From a plasmid: a stretch of 64,000 nt of DNA. Numbering within the stretch: position 1 is the first letter of the stretch; each line of letters opens with the position of its first letter. Below, piece after piece: positions 1,566 through 25,400 of the stretch. Made by a program: the position numbers and the translations under genes. The notes under the pieces were generated by a model that saw only the letters and a program-made list of their open reading frames with translations, was not told where the DNA came from and did not search any database. The DNA is taken from sequence record NZ_CP118102.1; one strand, written 5' to 3'.

Positions 1566-4022
1566 CTAGAGTTTCACACGTTGTAATCGCAAAGCATTTA
1601 GAACAACGGAAACTGAACTCAGTGCCATAGCTGCACCCGCGACCCAAGGCGCCAACAAACCGATAGCTGCGATCGGAATCCCAAGGGTATTGTAACCAAG
1701 AGCCCAGAAAAGATTTTGTTTGATGTTGCTCATTGTCTTACGACTCATATATATAGCGTCCGGAATGCTAGATAGATCCCCTCGCATTAACGTAACGTCC
1801 GCAGCTTCCATAGCAACATCTGTGCCAGTGCCGATTGCCATTCCGATATCAGCTGTAGCGAGTGCCGGAGCATCGTTAATTCCATCCCCCACCATAGCAA
1901 CCTTTTTACCTTCTGTTTGAAGTTTTTTTACTTCCTCTGCTTTACCTTCTGGAAGTACTTCCGCACGAACATGGTCGATGCCGACTTCAGCGGCGATCGC
2001 TTTCGCAGTTCGTTCATTATCCCCAGTGATCATAATGACCTGAATTCCCATATCCTTCAATCGGCTAACCGCAGCTTTTGATGTCTCTTTGATAGTATCC
2101 GCTACTGCCACCATTCCGGCATACTGACCATCAATTGCAACTAGCATTGCAGTTTTTCCAGACTCCTCCAAGGTCGCCATGTTTTCAAAGGCTTCTTTCG
2201 CGCTCACGCTGTATTTATCCATCAGCCTACGTGTTCCGATCAGGACATTCTTTCCTTCTACGGAAGCCTTGATGCCAAAACCGGGAATAGCCTCAAACGC
2301 TTCGGTTGCTGGAATCTCAATATTTCGATCTTGAATACCTGCAACAATTGCTTCTGCAAGCGGGTGCTCTGAATTTTTTTCAGCGGCACCAACAAGTCTT
2401 AGAAACTCCACTTTATCTATATTTGTTATTACATCTGTAAGTTCTGGCTTCCCTTTAGTGACAGTCCCCGTTTTATCCAGAATGATGGTGTCAATTTTAT
2501 GAGTTTGTTCTAGGTGTTCGCCACCTTTGAATAGAATACCGAATTCAGCTGCCCGTCCGGATCCTGCCATAATGGATGTCGGGGTCGCAAGACCAAGTGC
2601 GCAAGGACATGCAATAACAAGAATCGCAATTGCCTTTTCTAAAGATCCGGCAAAATCACTTGGAGTTATAAAGAAGTACCAAATTAAGAAGGCCAACACT
2701 GCGATACCAACAACGATTGGGACGAAAATGCCCGAGATCTTGTCGGCAATTCGTTGAATAGGAGCTTTCGAACCTTGAGCTTCCTCTACGACTTTCACGA
2801 TCTGAGCTAATGCAGTTTCTTTGCCAACTTTCGTTGCTCGAACCCGAAGCATACCCTTTTTGTTAATCGTCGCTCCAATTACCGCATCGCCGGGTTTCTT
2901 TTCGACAGGTATGCTTTCTCCCGTCAACATGGATTCATCTATTGAAGATTCACCTTCAATGACTTCACCATCTACAGGCACTTTGTTTCCAGGACGTACA
3001 AGGATGATATCACCAACCAAAACCTCGTCTACTGGCATTGTTAATTCCTGGCCATCACGAATAACTAGAGCTGTCTTTGCCTGAAGTCCCATCAAGGATT
3101 TAATAGCTTCTGAAGTGCGTCCTTTAGCTTGGGCTTCAAACAATTTACCCATGACAACCAATGTAATGAGAACCGCACTTGTCTCAAAATACAAAGAAGG
3201 ACCATGATGCATATCGCTGCCGCTTAAGTACCAATCCATTGTTAAATATAAACTGTAAAAATAAGCTGCAGAAGTACCTAGCGAGATTAGTACATCCATA
3301 TTCGCACTGCCGTTACGAAGAGCTTTATAGGCGCCAACGTAAAAATGCCAACCTATATAAAATTGCACTGGTGTTGCAAGTATTAATTGAAACCATGGAT
3401 TCATAAAGATCTCCGGCATGTAAATCCAGGATGTGAAGGAGAAATGGGCAACCATACTCCACAACAACGGCAATGATAGGATTGCTGAGATGAGTAACCG
3501 CTGTTTCTGACGCTTAGTTTCTTTTTCCCGGTGATCTTCAGCAGATTCGTTTTCATTCATTAAGATGGCTTTGTAGCCTAGCTGGTTGACTTTGTTTTGC
3601 ATATCAGAAACTGATATTTCATCAGGAGAATACTCAACCCGTGCCGACTCTAAAGCAAAATTGACGGTTGCATTCGTTACGCCGGGCAACTTTCCTAGAC
3701 CTTTCTCTATCCGGTTGGCACAGGCAGCACAGGTCATACCCTCAAGCTGAAATTGAGCGACTTCGCTTACCGTTTCGTAACCCAACTTACGGATGGTTTG
3801 CTCAAAATTCTCAATACTTATTTTAGTAGGATCATAATTAACACTTGCTTTTTCCAAAGCAAAGTTGACGTTTGCTGAAGTCACACCATCAAGTTTGCTC
3901 AATCCTTTTTCAATGCGATTTGCGCAGGCGGCACAAGTCATGCCGCTCACCCGCAAAGTTGTTTGTTTTATTGGAGTTGAACTTGTTTCCAATGTACTCA
4001 CTCTCCGTCCATTAAAATTCAC
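1566..4022 (-). CDS. copA: Copper-translocating P1B-type ATPase CopA
   Basis: 818 aa with two N-terminal HMA domains ([15 protein letters not shown] twice), a CPC transmembrane motif ([11 protein letters not shown]), the DKTGT phosphorylation site, GDGINDAP and HP motifs. Confidence 0.95.
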
Positions 4023-9354: not shown

Positions 9355-9387
9355 TTAATTTAATTTTGTTAAACTAATCTGCCCGTT
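9355..9387. repeat. Left part of ~145-bp repeat copy A, interrupted by the IS110 insertion
   Basis: ttaaactaatctgcccgtt matches ttaaacaaacctgcccgtt at 20780..20798. Confidence 0.6.
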
Positions 9388-10964
9388 CGTATTATGAGGT
9401 CACCAGATCTTTCTGGTCGACCTCTTTTTTGTTTGGTCGTAAGATAGCGGTAGCCGGGGATCGAGCGTATCTGCCCGTGGGACTTGGATCCCGAGAGCTA
9501 TTCTGTTCATCCCCCCTACTTGTTCAACCATGGTTAGGCTGGTTGGGACGTTGATCCCGTATCACATGCGATAGTGTGGAAAACAAGAAGGTTAGGGGTT
9601 ACCGGTGAATATACTTTGGGAGTGATGTCATGAATCCAGTCATTGGTTTGGATGTGTCCAAGGGAGAGAGCCATGCACAAGCTTTTTTAGACCGCGGAGA
9701 AGCTCATGGGAAGATCTTTAGATTTAATCATGATCTAGAGGGATTATCGGCTTTTCTTAATTATGTTAGAGCGGTAGAATCAGTTGCAGGCATAAGCCCT
9801 TGTATTGTGATGGAGGCAACAGGTCATTATCATAGCCCTGTTGTTCAGTTTCTGGATGAGCACCAGTATCTATACATCGTCATTAATCCGTTAATCTCAT
9901 ATGAAGCTAAAAAGACTAATTTGAGACGCGTCAAGACGGATGCTGCTGATGCCTATCAACTTGGGGCCCTGTTCTATAAAGAAGAATTCGAACCCATCAA
10001 AAAACGGGGGCAGCATCTCATGAATTTACGCTATCTCACGCGTCAGCATGAATCTTTAACGGGTATGTATGTTCAAGTGAAGCTGCAGTTCCAGGCTATT
10101 CTAGATCAGGTTTTTCCTGAATACCATGGTGTGTTCGGTGACCTCTATTCGAAAGTTTCTCTTCGATTCCTAGCTTTACACCCGACCTCTAAAGAAATCC
10201 TGGAAATGTCGGAGCAGGAAATTTCAACAGAGATACACCACCTGATCGCACGAGGCAAATCCACCTCATGGAGTTTGGAACGTGCTCAAATTCTAATGGC
10301 TGCAGCTAAGCGAAACCCCTTTAAGGAGACGGCATTTCCAAGTCATCTGATCTCCATGCAACTGCTCATTAAATTGCTTCTTCAATACCAGGACCATCTA
10401 GCAGACCTTGATAAATCGATAGAGATCCTGGTTGAAGAGTTACCTGAATATGATTTAATCCAATCGATACCTGGTATCGGTACTAAAATTGCTGCAACAA
10501 TTTTGGCTGAGATTGGGGAAATCGATCGATTCGATCACGCAAAGAAGCTGGTGGCTTTTGCTGGTGTTGATCCCAGTGTATTTGCTTCAGGTAAGTTTGT
10601 GGCAACCCAAAACAGAATCACGAAACACGGCTCCAGAAGGCTTCGTACAGCCCTGTATCAAGCTGTGCAATGTGGTATTCGTAGTAATAGAAACAAGAAA
10701 TTAAGAACTTACTACGACAAAAGCGTGCTGAAGGAAAGCTTTTCAAAGTAGCGGTAATTGCTTGTGTAAACAAACTCATCCACTGGATTTTTGCTATCTT
10801 GACTTCGAAAGAAGCATTTCGGCTAGAATAAGTTGAATGAAATTCAAAGATATGAAATATATTCCTGTGCCGAAGGGGACGGTTATTTATCATGCCCTTT
10901 TTAAAGTATACCACCTCATGAAGTCGCAATTAATAATTAAATATTGACAAGCTATTAGCTGGAA
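9388..10964 (+). mobile_element. IS110-family insertion sequence (~1.58 kb) with a structured 5' non-coding region
   Basis: Boundaries come from alignment of split repeat copy A to intact copy B (20770..20920). There are no terminal inverted repeats, as is usual for IS110. The 5' region contains ATCTGCCCGT, identical to the left target flank. Confidence 0.7.
9630..10751 (+). CDS. IS110-family transposase (DEDD N-domain + Transposase_20 C-domain)
   Basis: GLDVSK, MEATGHYH and IPGIGTKIAATILAEIGEIDRF motifs, plus a C-terminal KHGSRRLRTALYQAV. Confidence 0.9.
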   Translation: MNPVIGLDVSKGESHAQAFLDRGEAHGKIFRFNHDLEGLSAFLNYVRAVESVAGISPCIVMEATGHYHSPVVQFLDEHQYLYIVINPLISYEAKKTNLRRVKTDAADAYQLGALFYKEEFEPIKKRGQHLMNLRYLTRQHESLTGMYVQVKLQFQAILDQVFPEYHGVFGDLYSKVSLRFLALHPTSKEILEMSEQEISTEIHHLIARGKSTSWSLERAQILMAAAKRNPFKETAFPSHLISMQLLIKLLLQYQDHLADLDKSIEILVEELPEYDLIQSIPGIGTKIAATILAEIGEIDRFDHAKKLVAFAGVDPSVFASGKFVATQNRITKHGSRRLRTALYQAVQCGIRSNRNKKLRTYYDKSVLKESFSK

Positions 10965-11095
10965 TAGCTTAATGAAAATGGAGCAGTTGCCGACTGGCAA
11001 TCTGCTCCATGCTATTTGTCTATATAAATAAAATAACTGCTTGGCTGCAAATTTACATTGTTTTATATAATCGGCGAAGTGCATCTCTCATTTCA
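10965..11095. repeat. Right part of ~145-bp repeat copy A (contains a minus-strand terminator hairpin and the last 12 codons of the PTP-like gene)
   Basis: agcttaatgaaaatggagcagttgccgactggcaatctgctccat...acattgttttatataatcggcgaagtgcatctctcat aligns to 20800..20915. Confidence 0.6.
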
Positions 11096-11481
11096 GGCTT
11101 AATATTGATATCGGGTCTCTTAGATTTTGCAGTTAGTTCAGCAGAATCTACATCCTTCTCGTGTCCTAATTCAAGCAGAAGTCCTGTTGAAACCGTTCCT
11201 GTACGATTACGCCCTCCTGAACAGTGAAAGTATACCTTCTTCCCTTCATCCACTGCTTTCTTAACAGCATGAATAGCCCTTTTAATCGATTCGTCTTGAT
11301 GATCTTGATCTTCAACGATAGGGAAATGGTGACGAGTGGTACTCTCACGTAACTCTAAGTTGCCACTTGAACCGTCCCGCAAGTCAAACACATCCGTTAT
11401 CCCTTGCTCCTTTACCGCCTGTTCAATATCATCAGCACCACCTATATAGACTTTATCTTTAATAAGTTCATGATAACTCAT
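11053..11481 (-). CDS. Dual-specificity/tyrosine phosphatase-fold protein (CX5R P-loop)
   Basis: VYFHCSGGRNRTG signature. It is the last gene of the minus-strand ars operon. The C-terminal 12 aa (MRDALRRLYKTM) are encoded inside the repeat. Confidence 0.6.
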   Translation of the reverse strand: MSYHELIKDKVYIGGADDIEQAVKEQGITDVFDLRDGSSGNLELRESTTRHHFPIVEDQDHQDESIKRAIHAVKKAVDEGKKVYFHCSGGRNRTGTVSTGLLLELGHEKDVDSAELTAKSKRPDINIKPEMRDALRRLYKTM

Positions 11482-20769: not shown

Positions 20770-20920
20770 CAATTTAGAATTAAACAAACCTGCCCGTTAG
20801 CTTAATAAAAATGGAGCAGATTGCCGACCGGTAATCTGCTCCATTCTATTTGAATAGCTGCAAACTTTACATTGTTTTATACAATCGGCGAGGTGCATCT
20901 CTCATCTCCTTTATGATTTT
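20770..20920. repeat. Intact copy B of the ~145-bp repeat, containing a minus-strand intrinsic terminator
   Basis: Stem atggagcagatt/aatctgctccat (12 bp) with loop gccgaccggt, followed on the minus strand by TTTTTATT. The 3' part overlaps the end of gene 20911..21570. Confidence 0.6.
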
Positions 20921-21570
20921 TCTCCACCTGACATATCTTGATCGAAGGGGATTTTAATCGTTGGAGTCTCATGAGTTTTAAGCTCTTGAGAAATGGAGTG
21001 AACATTTTGGATTAATACTGCAGCATTCTCTTTAAACTCAGTGTAATTTAAAAAAATAGTCAAAAGAACAATGATCAGTCTTACTGTTGGAAAATAGAAA
21101 TATTTAAGGAAAACTTTAAGATCCATTCCTTCAGGTGGTTTGAGATCGGATATCAATTCCTGTACTTGTTCTCTGGTTATATATTCAACTTTTGATTCTT
21201 CATCATTTTCATTTGGTATCGCAATTTTTTCTGGTATTTGTGTTTTTACAAATTTAAGGAGTTTAACATGAAAATCTATTGGGAATGTAAGTGAATTTGA
21301 GTATGTACTTGTAGAAATAATGCTGTTTATTACCTTTGCTGTATCATCTTGATCAAGATCGTAGGTAGTAGATATGGCTTTCGATGCTTTATGCACAGTG
21401 TCCACAAGTTGAGTTAAAGTTTCAGGCAGCGACTTTAGCGAGTCCGGCATTTGAGGTATCATTACATCGCTTAGTGATTTCAGTTTTTTAAGCTGTTCGT
21501 TTATATCTATTTCAGTTCCTTCCAACTCTTTAAGACTTTCCTGAATCAAAATATTTAAATCTCTACCCAT
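20911..21570 (-). CDS. Hypothetical coiled-coil protein with a C-terminal TM helix
   Basis: 219 aa with no recognisable catalytic motifs. It terminates immediately at the repeat copy B boundary. Confidence 0.45.
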   Translation of the reverse strand: MGRDLNILIQESLKELEGTEIDINEQLKKLKSLSDVMIPQMPDSLKSLPETLTQLVDTVHKASKAISTTYDLDQDDTAKVINSIISTSTYSNSLTFPIDFHVKLLKFVKTQIPEKIAIPNENDEESKVEYITREQVQELISDLKPPEGMDLKVFLKYFYFPTVRLIIVLLTIFLNYTEFKENAAVLIQNVHSISQELKTHETPTIKIPFDQDMSGGEKS

Positions 21571-23799: not shown

Positions 23800-25400
23800 C
23801 TCCAGATTTTTTACAGCATGTTATTCTCCGTTAGCCACCCATGCCCCTTTCGGGGCACCACAGAATAATGAAAATTTTTGGGATACGTTTTATACTATTC
23901 TTACGGCTGGCGAGGGAGGTCGATAAACTATGGTGTCCTGAACCCTTCCGTTAGTCTGACCCCAGCGACCTCGGTGCACCACGGAATGTCGCTCCTTTTT
24001 AGGAAGCACGCAGGGTAGATTAACCCTTTTTGGTTGTTGCACCAGCCCCCAATTTCACTTTGCCGTAGAAAGGTGATTATCATGGATGTTCTCATTGAAC
24101 GAGCATGCGGTTTGGATGTTCACAAGAAGAACATTACTGCATGCATTATTACACCTGAAGGAAAGGAGATTAAAACCTTCCGTACTCACACAGTCTTTAT
24201 CTTGGAACTCATCGATTGGATTAAGGATCATCGCTGCACTCATGTGGCCATGGAGAGCACCGGTGTGTTTTGGAAACCCATCGTGAACCTGCTGGAAGCC
24301 GAAGATATCGAATTCCTAGTCGTCAACGCACAGCACATAAAAGCAGTTCCCGGACGGAAAACCGACGTGAAAGATGCAGAATGGATTTGCTATCTACTTC
24401 GACATGGTCTGCTAAAACCTAGCTATATTCCCGATCGCAACCAACGTGAAATGAGAGAGCTTGTTCGCTATCGCCGGAGTCTGATTCAAGAACGTTCTCG
24501 TGAACATAACCGTGTTCAAAAAGTTTTGGAAGGCGCCAATATTAAGCTCGCTTCTGTCGTATCAGACATTATGGGGCTCTCAAGCCGGGACATGCTTGAG
24601 GCCATGGTCCATGGTGAAACCGATCCGGAAACACTGGCTGGCTTTGCACGCAGATCCATGAAGAGAAAGAAAGAAGAACTCGAGCTCGCGCTGAAAGGCA
24701 ACATGAGTTCACATCAACGGATGATGTTAAAAACCATGCTTACCCATATCGACTTCCTGAACGAACAAATCATCGAGCTGGATATGGAGGTAGCCAAACG
24801 GCTCGCCCCTTTCCAAAAAGACCTGGATCGACTGGATAGCATTCCGGGAATCGCAGCCCGAACGGCAGAACAAATCCTCGCCGAGATTGGCACGGACATT
24901 GCTTCTCGTTTCCCGAGTTCAGCCCATTTATGCTCATGGGTTGGTCTTGTTCCAGGTCACAATGAAAGTGCAGGCAAACGCAAGTCCTCCAAAACACGTA
25001 AAGGCAACAAATATCTCCGATCCGCACTCATCGAAGCTTCTCATTCCATACGGGGATCTGATAATTATCTCGGTGCCCAGTACAGGCGAATTGCAGCTCG
25101 CAAAGGAAGGCACCGCGCAGCTGTTGCTGTAGCCCATTCCATCATGACCATTGCTTACCATTTACTAACCAGGCAAGAAGATTATAAAGACTTAGGCTCC
25201 GATTATTTTGAGAAACGACACCAAGATGCGATCGTCAAACAAACCGTTCGAAAGCTAGAAAACCTTGGATTTACCGTAACCCTGGCCACATCTGAAGTAT
25301 CCTAATTAACCTGCTCAAACCAAGCGACGCAGCCTTTTTAAAAATCTTGCAAGCTGCGCCTAGTTTCGTATTGTCTTTTTTAGAGTTACGCTATGAATTA
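23800..25400 (+). mobile_element. Second IS110-family element (ends approximate)
   Basis: Transposase ORF plus a ~280-bp structured 5' leader. The leader has two similar stem-loop modules (23826..23870 and 23945..23992) sharing TCCGTTAG and GCACCACrGAAT. Confidence 0.55.
24082..25305 (+). CDS. IS110-family transposase
   Basis: GLDVHKK, VAMESTG and IPGIAARTAEQILAEIG motifs. Start at the ATG with a gaaaggtg RBS. Confidence 0.9.
   Translation: MDVLIERACGLDVHKKNITACIITPEGKEIKTFRTHTVFILELIDWIKDHRCTHVAMESTGVFWKPIVNLLEAEDIEFLVVNAQHIKAVPGRKTDVKDAEWICYLLRHGLLKPSYIPDRNQREMRELVRYRRSLIQERSREHNRVQKVLEGANIKLASVVSDIMGLSSRDMLEAMVHGETDPETLAGFARRSMKRKKEELELALKGNMSSHQRMMLKTMLTHIDFLNEQIIELDMEVAKRLAPFQKDLDRLDSIPGIAARTAEQILAEIGTDIASRFPSSAHLCSWVGLVPGHNESAGKRKSSKTRKGNKYLRSALIEASHSIRGSDNYLGAQYRRIAARKGRHRAAVAVAHSIMTIAYHLLTRQEDYKDLGSDYFEKRHQDAIVKQTVRKLENLGFTVTLATSEVS

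What the first reader, a model, noticed from the sequence alone, without database searches (positions are those of the whole stretch)
9355..11095. IS110-family element inserted precisely into a ~145-bp terminator-bearing repeat; its structured 5' leader carries a 10-nt copy of the target flank (bridge-RNA-like guide)
Aligning the split copy (9355..9387 + 10965..11095) to the intact copy (20770..20920) places the IS at 9388..10964, inserted between ...CTGCCCGTT and AGCTTAAT.... The GC-rich, hairpin-rich 240-bp leader upstream of the transposase contains ATCTGCCCGT (9469..9478), identical to the left target flank at 9377..9386. This fits an IS110 bridge RNA programmed to this repeat.
Basis: seen in the sequence. 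Interest (0 to 1): 0.7.

Follow-up and report, generated by a model that had tools for sequence, protein, structure and literature searches.

The report
Dead IS110 element with bridge RNA
This is an ordinary IS110-family insertion sequence on a Paenibacillus urinalis plasmid: its leader encodes a bridge-type guide RNA that matches the insertion site, as expected since 2024, and this copy's recombinase gene is broken by a frameshift.

Summary
The 10-mer ATCTGCCCGT in the leader (9469..9478) equals the left flank (9377..9386).

I fetched 80 related copies, mostly from Paenibacillus. They all insert at the same position of the same motif, ..CTGCCCG[T/A]T|AGYT... The 10-mer lies on the 5' strand of the first internal loop of a conserved RNA fold, and it changes together with the flank in diverged copies. 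The 3' strand of that loop pairs with the right junction. A second loop pairs with the RE-LE (donor) junction. That junction rebuilds a TTGACA/TATTAT promoter.

Corrections:
- The real target is a ~27-nt palindromic, REP-like motif that flanks terminators. It is abundant in Paenibacillus genomes.
- The "145-bp repeat" is that motif plus a terminator plus a duplicated gene tail.
- This copy has a 1-nt deletion that truncates the recombinase. It is single-copy and fixed in every assembly examined, so it is probably dead.

The parts
9388..10965 (+). IS110-family (IS110 group) insertion sequence, 1578 bp; there is a 1-nt ambiguity (T) at the ends
   Evidence: Empty-site reconstruction against 20771..20908. 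The ends are the same in about 70 related copies. The closest relative is 91.8% identical in DNA over the full length (L004).
9369..9387 (+). Left half of the target motif (TTAAACTAATCTGCCCGTT). The left target that matches the guide is 9377..9386; the two bases next to the IS are 9386..9387 (TT).
   Evidence: Identical to 9469..9478. The flank consensus across related loci is ..AACTATCCTGCCCGTT.
9390..9395 (+). TATTAT, the -10 half of the promoter rebuilt at the RE-LE (circle) junction
   Evidence: A natural RE-LE junction in L048 scores TTGACA-17-TATTAT, 11 of 12. IS621 has the same TATTAT at the same place in its left end.
9396..9430 (+). 5' stem-loop (9396..9424) followed by a run of six T (9425..9430). 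It is terminator-like for read-through from outside.
   Evidence: MFE fold. Helix 1 is 98.6% paired in 31 sequences. The insulating role is inference.
9453..9606 (+). Core of the bridge RNA: closing helix P0 (9453-57 / 9602-06) enclosing the target-binding and donor-binding arms
   Evidence: Consensus fold and pair counts. Covariance model R1 scores 186 bits here and 136-191 bits upstream of the recombinase gene in every related copy that retains its 5' end.
9458..9512 (+). Target-binding loop arm: basal stems 9458-61/9509-12 and 9463-66/9505-08, inner hairpin 9478-82/9489-93
   Evidence: A compensatory indel and AU-to-GC changes occur in the basal stem.
9469..9478 (+). Left target guide (LTG) AUCUGCCCGU, same sense as the top strand of the left flank
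   Evidence: 10 of 10 identity to 9377..9386. It co-varies with the flank in L054, L055, L059, L067, L068, L072, L077, L024, L039 and L017.
9496..9503 (+). Right target guide AGCU (9496-99), core-binding AU (9500-01) and handshake guide UC (9502-03)
   Evidence: It is the reverse complement of the right junction GAAT|AGCT at 10962..10969. It co-varies with the RE tip (UAUUC, UAUAC, UAAAC against GAAT, GTAT, GTTT) and with the right flank (L060, L068, L055, L077).
9519..9587 (+). Donor-binding loop arm: stems 9519-24/9582-87 and 9529-32/9575-78, inner hairpin 9544-48/9555-59
   Evidence: Helix 6 has 4 pairs with compensatory changes.
9537..9544 (+). Left donor guide GGCUGGUU. It matches the RE tip AGCTGGAA only in GCTGG; there are 2 mismatches next to the core in this copy.
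   Evidence: The variant GGCUAGUU goes with RE ..GCTAGAAT in L040, L041, L042 and L056. The match is perfect (GCUGGUU = GCTGGTT) in copies whose RE ends GGTTT.
9566..9572 (+). Right donor guide AUGCG plus core-binding AU. It pairs with the top strand AT|CGTAT of the RE-LE junction, with one G:T wobble.
   Evidence: GCGAU goes with an AT donor core and GCGAA with a TT donor core, except in L055, L076 and L077.
9630..10751 (+). Recombinase ORF as it stands (373 aa), cut short by a 1-nt deletion in an A run at about 10718..10722. D8, E62, D104, D107 and S320 are present.
   Evidence: Pfam. PDB matches to IS621 and ISCro4. The deletion shows against 8 relatives, and the residues were read off the translation. 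The same 373-aa product occurs in all assemblies found.
10723..10832 (+). Out-of-frame remainder of the recombinase gene (KRAEGKLFKVAVIACVNKLIHWIFAILTSKEAFRLE*)
   Evidence: tblastn segment 10694..10828 in another frame; alignment to intact relatives.
10833..10965 (+). Right end (133 bp): -35 box TTGACA at 10944..10949, left donor ..AGCTGGA, core AT at 10964..10965
10966..11010 (+). Right half of the target motif (AGCTTAAT..), then the terminator hairpin (10980..11008) of the minus-strand phosphatase gene
   Evidence: The same motif-then-hairpin arrangement is seen in many related loci.
20771..20908 (+). Intact paralogue of the insertion site. The unoccupied target AACAAACCTGCCCGTT|AGCTTAAT is at 20783..20806.
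   Evidence: It would pair with the LTG at 10 positions (one U:G wobble) and with the RTG at 4 of 4.

Best explanation
Positions 9388..10965 are an IS110-group insertion sequence. It is carried on a roughly 190-206 kb Paenibacillus urinalis plasmid.

Its 242-nt left end encodes an IS621-type bridge RNA. The RNA has a 5' stem-loop, a target-binding loop and a donor-binding loop, closed by a common helix. [quoted passage not shown] The donor-binding loop does the same for the RE-LE junction of the excised circle. That junction also rebuilds a TTGACA/TATTAT promoter that would drive the RNA.

The DEDD/Ser recombinase would exchange strands next to the invariant T of an [A/T]T core. This placed the element between CTGCCCGTT and AGCTTAAT. 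That spot is in the 3' arm of a short palindromic, REP-like motif next to the terminator of the phosphatase gene.

What is shown: the element's ends, the fold, guide/flank and guide/donor co-variation, the promoter halves and the catalytic residues. What is inferred: expression of the RNA, RNA-guided catalysis, and the chemistry, all by analogy with IS621.

This copy is most likely a dead relic. A 1-nt deletion removes the last ~37 residues of the recombinase. The copy is single and fixed in one context. A fully matching target 9.8 kb away is empty.
For: - Recombinase family: Pfam, PDB matches to IS621 and ISCro4, catalytic residues.
- Precise insertion.
- Same insertion position in about 60 independent copies from about 45 genomes.
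- LTG/flank co-variation: observed mean identity 8.28 of 12 against 7.04 +/- 0.13 in permutations; 0 of 10000 reach the observed value.
- Co-variation of the RTG and handshake guide with the right flank and the RE tip, and of the LDG and RDG with the donor.
- Conserved fold with compensatory changes: 15 pairs against 3.9 in shuffles, 0 of 500; versions with partners slid by 1-3 columns are 33-47% paired against 98.5%.
- The covariance model finds the RNA upstream of the recombinase gene in every copy that retains its 5' end.
- Junction promoter: 11 of 12 in a natural RE-LE junction.
- Guide strand rules and the handshake as published: PMC11208160 and PMC11208158.
- Inactivity: frameshift relative to 8 relatives; the same 373-aa ORF and the same context in all assemblies found; one IS copy per plasmid; an empty matching site at 20783.
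Against: - There are no expression or activity data for this element.
- The left donor guide of this copy mismatches the RE tip at the two positions next to the cleavage site (GGCUGGUU against AGCTGGAA).
- The base after the LTG is G where the second core base is T, so the 5' guides appear to read only the first core position, unlike IS621.
- The donor core (AT) and target core (TT) differ at the first position.
- Neither Rfam nor my family model links this RNA to the IS621 RNA by sequence or structure score. The similarity is architectural.
- The truncated protein keeps all catalytic residues, so residual activity is not excluded.
Confidence: 0.85

Rival explanations
1. The 10-nt identity between leader and flank is a coincidence. 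The leader is only a structured 5' UTR (for example a translational or read-through control element), and target choice is made by the protein recognising the palindromic motif.
For: A single 10-mer match has a chance rate of about 0.65% for this leader and flank, which is not negligible in a whole-genome scan. The target is a palindrome that a protein could recognise. The 5' stem-loop with its U run looks regulatory.
Against: In diverged copies the same loop positions change together with the flank. Examples: CGCACCUGU with CGCACCTGT (L067), AGCACCCGU with AGCACCCGT (L059), UGGCCCGU with TGGCCCGT (L077). No permutation of 10000 reaches the observed match. The opposite loop strand tracks the right flank and the RE tip. 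Both are exactly what the published bridge RNA rules predict.
Confidence: 0.05
2. The element is still mobile. Either the truncated 373-aa protein works, or a recombinase supplied in trans by a related chromosomal copy uses this copy's intact RNA and ends.
For: All five catalytic residues lie upstream of the frameshift. The RNA, both ends and the promoter halves are intact. One metagenomic contig (L089) breaks 20 nt inside the IS, as happens at repeated or polymorphic sequence.
Against: The lost C-terminal ~37 residues are conserved in all relatives and align to IS621. The exact 373-aa product is found in one genomic context only. There is one copy per plasmid. No close copy turned up from any P. 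urinalis genome among the 80 best loci. A matching target 9.8 kb away is unoccupied.
Confidence: 0.1
3. The 145-bp repeat is itself a small mobile or recombinogenic element, and the IS recognises the repeat as a whole.
For: Two copies in the window share about 92% identity over about 135 nt. There are 3-4 places per plasmid.
Against: In related genomes only the ~27-nt motif around the insertion point is shared between sites; sequence further out differs. The right part of the repeat is the coding tail of the phosphatase gene. The guides cover only about 10 + 5 nt.
Confidence: 0.05

Closest known systems
IS621 of Escherichia coli and its bridge RNA (Durrant et al. 2024, PMC11208160; Hiraizumi et al. 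2024, PMC11208158)
   Same: - The recombinase is of the same type (DEDD/RuvC-like domain plus Tnp domain with a catalytic Ser; E=2e-26 to PDB 8wt6).
- The RNA lies in the longer left end.
- The order is 5' stem-loop, then target-binding loop, then donor-binding loop, each an internal loop with an inner hairpin.
- The 5' strand of each loop has the same sense as the top strand of the left arm; the 3' strand is complementary to the core plus the right arm.
- A handshake guide follows the RTG.
- The second core base is an invariant T.
- The promoter is split across the RE-LE junction, and the left end even begins the same way (YGTATTAT).
- The target is a repeated extragenic palindrome.
   Different: - Protein identity is low and confined to conserved blocks.
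- No RNA model cross-detects the two RNAs.
- Here a closing helix (P0) encloses both arms.
- The core is [A/T]T rather than CT.
- The 5' guides seem to read only the first core base.
- Donor and target cores differ at the first position in most copies.
- The left end is 242 nt against 191 nt.
- The host is a Gram-positive Paenibacillus.
- The target is a different palindromic motif that flanks terminators.
ISCro4 bridge recombinase (PDB 9t56)
   Same: It is the second-best solved relative of the recombinase (E=8e-26) and belongs to the same IS110 group.
   Different: I compared protein sequence only. Its RNA and target were not examined here.
REP-targeting IS110-family elements such as ISPpu9/ISPpu10 and ISPa11 (named in PMC11208160; their REP preference is from my own knowledge)
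   Same: They insert site-specifically and in one orientation at a fixed position of an abundant intergenic palindrome, so no genes are disrupted.
   Different: Those are proteobacterial REPs. Here the motif is AACTAWC-N5-7-GTTAGTT. It is about 100-fold enriched in the Paenibacillus loci (183 hits against about 2 in shuffles) and usually lies on either side of a G+C-rich hairpin.
IS1111-group elements with seekRNA or a right-end bridge RNA
   Same: Same recombinase family and the same principle of a bispecific guide.
   Different: Those carry the RNA in a long right end and have longer sub-terminal inverted repeats (PMC11208160). Here the left end (242 nt) is longer than the right end (133 nt), the RNA is in the left end, and no terminal inverted repeat is present.

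Membership tests
IS110 family, IS110 group | Recombinase with an N-terminal DEDD (RuvC-like) domain and a C-terminal Tnp domain carrying a catalytic serine | tested here: met
   Pfam PF01548 and PF02371. IS621 8wt6 E=2e-26. D8, E62, D104, D107 and S320 are present.
IS110 family, IS110 group | No terminal inverted repeats and no target duplication beyond the shared core | tested here: met
   The longest inverted match between the first and last 60 nt is a sub-terminal 7-mer, not at the tips. The junctions share only the T of the core.
IS110 family, IS110 group | Non-coding left end longer than the right end, with the structured RNA in the left end | tested here: met
   Left end 242 nt (9388..9629), right end 133 nt (10833..10965). 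The conserved fold lies in the left end.
IS110 family, IS110 group | Site- and orientation-specific insertion | tested here: met
   About 60 independent copies sit at ..CTGCCCG[T/A]T | AGYT...
IS110 family, IS110 group | Intact recombinase reading frame (needed for an autonomous copy, not for family membership) | tested here: not met
   A 1-nt deletion relative to 8 relatives truncates the protein at 373 of 400 aa. It is identical in other assemblies.
Bridge RNA (IS621 type) | Two internal loops, each closed by a stem and carrying an inner hairpin, conserved with compensatory changes | tested here: met
   45 pairs are 98.5% paired. Fifteen pairs have compensatory changes against 3.9 in shuffles, 0 of 500.
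Bridge RNA (IS621 type) | The 5' strand of the first loop has the same sense as the top strand of the left target (8-9 nt) and co-varies with it | tested here: met
   10 of 10 in this copy. 0 of 10000 permutations reach the observed match over 51 distinct pairs.
Bridge RNA (IS621 type) | The 3' strand of the first loop is complementary to the core plus the right target (4-7 nt), followed by a handshake guide that pairs with the donor | tested here: met
   AGCUAUUC is the reverse complement of GAAT|AGCT. It co-varies with the RE tip and with the right flank.
Bridge RNA (IS621 type) | The second loop pairs with the RE-LE donor junction (LDG and RDG) | tested here: inconclusive
   The RDG AUGCGAU pairs with AT|CGTAT (one wobble) and tracks the donor core. 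The LDG matches only GCTGG in this copy, with 2 mismatches next to the core. It is perfect in GGTTT-type copies, and a G-to-A change co-varies in 4 loci.
Bridge RNA (IS621 type) | A sigma-70 promoter is rebuilt at the RE-LE junction | tested here: met
   TTGACA (10944-49) and TATTAT (9390-95) would be 18 nt apart in this copy's junction. A natural junction in L048 gives TTGACA-17-TATTAT, 11 of 12.
Bridge RNA (IS621 type) | The RNA is expressed, binds the recombinase and directs recombination | not testable with these tools
   This needs RNA-seq and recombination assays.
   Rfam 15 has no such family: the canonical IS621 left end itself gives no hit. Model R1 does not hit IS621 at E<=10.

The most novel reading that the evidence does not exclude
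In this Paenibacillus lineage the first 'core' position may not be shared between donor and target. Most copies have donor A and target T at that position. All 51 right junctions of AT-type copies keep the donor A, and 43 of 51 left junctions keep the target T. The 3' guides (RTG, RDG) read the donor base, while the 5' guides (LTG, LDG) keep U. This would mean that the crossover is confined to the single invariant T, or that the heteroduplex is resolved in one direction, with guides tuned to the product state. Either would be a mechanistic variant of the IS621 scheme.
Probability: 0.25. Interest if true: 0.45.

Novelty: new member of a known kind. Interest (0 to 1): 0.3.

Why it matters
The finding adds little that is new in principle. 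Bridge RNAs were described in 2024 and predicted for most IS110 elements.

It does give a well-documented Gram-positive family. There are about 80 copies with natural retargeting of the left and right target guides, plus a covariance model. The family shows the guide rules holding outside the Proteobacteria, and it could serve as a source of orthogonal bridge recombinases.

It also points to an abundant palindromic intergenic motif in Paenibacillus that acts as a landing pad next to terminators.

For annotating this plasmid, the region should be labelled as an IS110-family pseudogene copy with an intact bridge RNA gene.

Tried and rejected
- Rfam scan of the region: no relevant hit. This is uninformative, because the canonical IS621 bridge RNA also gives no hit.
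- Family covariance model R1 against IS621 and against the second IS110-family gene in the window: no hit. RNA-level homology to IS621 could not be shown.
- Search for an empty site by exact-protein look-ups of both neighbouring genes and of the IS product: every assembly carries the IS in the same place.
- Host identification through assembly accessions in papers and through tRNA genes: nothing. It was solved instead by a plasmid BLAST: 100% identity to P. urinalis plasmids.
- Literature search for a described Paenibacillus IS110 bridge RNA or REP-like motif: nothing relevant.
- Rfam scan of a locus rich in the target motif: only chance-level hits.
- A strict regular expression for motif-hairpin-motif units was too narrow and found a single unit. 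The fuzzy search is the one to rely on.
- One mis-typed DNA pattern returned nothing.
- Programmed frameshifting as a rescue of the recombinase was considered and rejected. The site (GAC AAA AGC) is not a slippery heptamer and the A run has only 4 bases. This rests on sequence inspection.
- A core of GT (which would let the LTG read both core bases) was considered and rejected, because it does not reproduce the observed junctions.
Full report
**1. What is in the sequence**

ORF 9630..10751 (+) encodes a 373-aa protein. It has the two Pfam domains of IS110-family recombinases: DEDD_Tnp_IS110 (E=1e-30) and Transposase_20 (E=4e-27). Its best solved relatives are the IS621 and ISCro4 recombinases (E=2e-26 and 8e-26). 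The residues equivalent to the IS621 catalytic set are present: D8, E62, D104, D107 and S320.

The gene is damaged. Compared with eight relatives, one A is missing from an A run at about 10718..10722. The last ~37 conserved residues (KRAEGKLFKVAV..RLE*) are therefore read in another frame, up to 10832. The same 373-aa product, and an IS with 0-1 mismatches to this one, occur in every other assembly that carries this locus. The deletion is therefore real and not a sequencing error.

**2. The insertion**

Joining 9362..9387 to 10966..11094 gives a sequence that aligns to 20771..20908 with 124 of 134 aligned bases identical. The alignment runs straight across the join..CTGCCCGTT|AGCTTAAT...

The occupied site has one extra T, so the element is 9388..10965 (1578 bp). 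Relatives measure 1575-1584 bp. The tips carry no inverted repeats.

The "145-bp repeat" is composite. From left to right it contains:
- a short motif holding the insertion point;
- a hairpin (10980..11008) that is the intrinsic terminator of the minus-strand dual-specificity phosphatase gene 11053..11481;
- the last 13 codons of that gene.

The window has only these two copies, and the plasmids have 3-4.

**3. Host**

The IS and the repeat are 100% identical to two Paenibacillus urinalis plasmids of 190 and 206 kb. Each plasmid has one IS copy. The IS lies between a C40 peptidase gene and the phosphatase-arsC-arsB-arsR cluster.

**4. Related copies**

A scan of one genome per species returned 80 loci with 54-91% protein identity. 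Most are from Paenibacillus; others are from Neobacillus, Peribacillus, Sporosarcina, Virgibacillus, Alicyclobacillus and further Bacillales.

All left ends begin CGTATTATGAGGTC. All right ends finish TTGACAAGCTATTAGCTGG[A/T][A/T]T. The flanks outside the element differ from locus to locus except for a short motif..AACTAWCCTGCCCG[T/A]T on the left and AGYT.AA.. on the right. So every copy sits at the same position of the same motif.

**5. The guide**

The published rules say the left target guide (LTG) has the same sense as the top strand of the left target plus core (8-9 nt). The right target guide (RTG) is complementary to the top strand of the core plus the right target (4-7 nt) (PMC11208160).

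The window's 10-mer (9469..9478) fits the LTG rule. It lies on the 5' strand of the first internal loop. In diverged copies the same positions change together with the flank:

| Locus | Guide | Flank |
|---|---|---|
| L067 | CGCACCUGU | CGCACCTGT |
| L059 | AGCACCCGU | AGCACCTGT should read AGCACCCGT |
| L077 | UGGCCCGU | TGGCCCGT |
| L068 | CGCCCCC | CGCCCCC |
| L054 | AACGGG.GC | AACGGG.GC |
| L039 | AACUGCCCGU | AACTGCCCGT |
| L024 | UCGUGCCCGU | TCGTACCCGT (one G:T wobble) |

For L059 the guide AGCACCCGU matches the flank AGCACCCGT exactly.

Over 51 distinct guide/flank pairs the mean identity is 8.28 of 12. Shuffled pairings give 7.04 +/- 0.13, and 0 of 10000 reach the observed value.

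The 3' strand of the same loop, AGCUAUUC (9496..9503), is the reverse complement of the right junction GAAT|AGCT (10962..10969). It divides as follows:
- AGCU pairs with the right target.
- AU pairs with the core.
- UC pairs with the last bases of the right end.

The last segment is what Hiraizumi et al. call the handshake guide (PMC11208158).

This strand also co-varies. UAUUC, UAUAC and UAAAC go with right-end tips GAAT, GTAT and GTTT. The right-target part changes with the flank in L060 (AAGU with ACTT), L068 (GCGCU with AGCGC), and L055 and L077 (CA with TG).

**6. The donor loop and the promoter**

The second internal loop carries GGCUGGUU (9537..9544) on its 5' strand and AUGCGAU (9566..9572) on its 3' strand.

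AUGCGAU pairs with AT|CGTAT of the RE-LE junction, with one wobble. It reads GCGAU in copies with an AT donor core and GCGAA in most copies with a TT core.

GGCUGGUU matches the right-end tip fully in GGTTT-type copies. It changes to GGCUAGUU in the four loci whose right end reads GCTAGAAT. In the window copy it mismatches the two bases next to the core, so I rate this guide as only partly verified here.

The right end carries TTGACA (10944..10949) and the left end TATTAT (9390..9395). In a circle junction they would be 18 nt apart. A natural RE-LE junction in L048 scores TTGACA-17-TATTAT, 11 of 12. IS621 has TATTAT at the same place in its left end.

**7. The fold**

On 31 diverse leaders, RNAalifold and a hand-refined structure give these helices:
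- a 5' stem-loop;
- a closing helix, 9453-57 with 9602-06;
- a target-binding arm, 9458..9512;
- a three-pair CCC/GGG helix;
- a donor-binding arm, 9519..9587.

The 45 pairs are 98.5% paired. Fifteen pairs show compensatory changes, against 3.9 +/- 1.4 in shuffles (0 of 500). Versions with partners slid by 1-3 columns are only 33-47% paired.

A covariance model of the core scores 186 bits in the window. It scores 136-191 bits upstream of the recombinase gene in every related copy that retains its 5' end.

The model does not detect IS621. Rfam has no bridge RNA family at all: the canonical IS621 left end gives no hit. The link to IS621 therefore rests on architecture and on the guide rules, not on RNA sequence similarity.

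The 5' stem-loop (9396..9424) is followed by six U. By analogy with IS621, the junction promoter would start transcription at about 9402. The full hairpin would then form only in read-through transcripts coming from outside. I infer that it insulates the element, but this is untested.

**8. The target**

The reconstructed site is an imperfect palindrome, TTAAACTAA-TCTGCCCG-TTAGCTTAA. The IS entered its 3' arm.

A fuzzy search for the motif finds 183 hits in the 614 kb of fetched loci, against about 2 in shuffles. The hits often lie on both sides of a G+C-rich hairpin. Left-type copies (..CCTGCCCGTTAG..) and right-type copies (..CGTNCCCGTTAG..) can be told apart.

It therefore behaves like a REP-like intergenic repeat. 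Preference for such repeats is known for IS110-family elements. Rfam does not know the motif.

**9. State of this copy**

Four lines of evidence suggest this copy is a relic:
- the frameshift in the recombinase gene;
- a single genomic context in about 20 assemblies;
- one copy per plasmid;
- an empty site at 20783..20806 that would pair with the LTG at 10 positions (one wobble) and with the RTG at 4 of 4.

Its RNA gene and both ends are intact, so mobilisation in trans cannot be excluded.

**10. An unexplained detail**

Among copies whose right end finishes in AT, all 51 right junctions keep AT. Of their left junctions, 43 read TT and 8 read AT.

The 5' guides have U at the first core position, which matches the target T. 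The 3' guides have U opposite the donor A. In three loci (L055, L076, L077) the RTG reads the donor base while the RDG reads the target base.

This differs from the IS621 picture of an identical two-base core read by all four guides. It may mean a one-base crossover or product-state tuning. I could not test this.

**11. Verdict**

The element is a new member of a known kind: an IS110-group element with an IS621-type bridge RNA. It is of modest interest.

Noticed in passing
window 24034..25305 (+); upstream 23825..23990: A second IS110-family recombinase gene with an intact ORF (423 aa as listed; about 25% identical to the first). Its upstream region holds two similar modules containing TCTCCGTTAGCC and CTTCCGTTAGTC, which resemble the right-type copy of the same palindromic motif (..CCGTTAG..). 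It may carry its own bridge RNA aimed at the sister motif. My model R1 does not hit it.
   Followed up: partly
window 20863..20908 and 11053..11094: The repeat includes the last 13 codons of the phosphatase gene (MRDALRRLYKTM*). At 20863..20908 the same tail (MRDAPRRLYKTM*) follows directly after the stop of an unrelated 219-aa ORF (20911..21570, minus strand) and is preceded by AGGAG. It is a duplicated gene tail or a mini-ORF of unknown meaning.
   Followed up: partly
L001-L080 (e.g. L006 239..330, L017 5849..5940, L019 3380..3470): An abundant palindromic intergenic motif, AACTAWC-N5-7-GTTAGTT (183 fuzzy hits in 614 kb against about 2 in shuffles). It usually occurs as a left-type and a right-type copy on either side of a G+C-rich terminator-like hairpin. 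It is not in Rfam, and I found no description of it in the paper library.
   Followed up: partly
L048 5316..5360; L069 and L070 about 3740..3758: Natural RE-LE junctions in chromosomes. In L048 a full copy is followed directly by the start of another left end (..GCGGAAT|CGTATTAT..). In L069 and L070 the left flank is a degenerate right end (CTATTAACTGTAT|CGTATTAT). These are tandem or partial dimers that preserve the donor form.
   Followed up: partly
L095 1585..1680 (E. coli BS15R-A, IS621): The IS621 left end is partly duplicated. A first copy stops exactly after the DNA that encodes its left target guide (..CCGTATCGGGCCT), and a complete left end follows (TGTATTATCC..). It looks as if one IS621 inserted into the guide-encoding DNA of another, that is, the guide sequence acted as a target mimic.
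   Followed up: no
related loci, junction bases (table): The first core position is asymmetric: donor A against target T. The right junction is AT in 51 of 51 AT-type copies. The left junction is TT in 43 and AT in 8. The 5' guides and 3' guides read different bases at this position.
   Followed up: partly
L089 (SRR5240396 contig) end, equivalent to window about 9408: A metagenomic contig carrying the C40 peptidase gene ends 20 nt inside the IS. This is typical of an assembly break at a repeated or polymorphic sequence. The IS might be multi-copy or absent in part of that population.
   Followed up: no
L027 6747..6909, L043 2467..2628, L039 2749..2904, L069 1357..1523: Model R1 finds further bridge RNA copies in some loci (120-128 bits), so additional IS copies lie within a few kb of the first. 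It also gives one weak hit (23.5 bits, E=0.0016) in L069 that could be a diverged relative.
   Followed up: no
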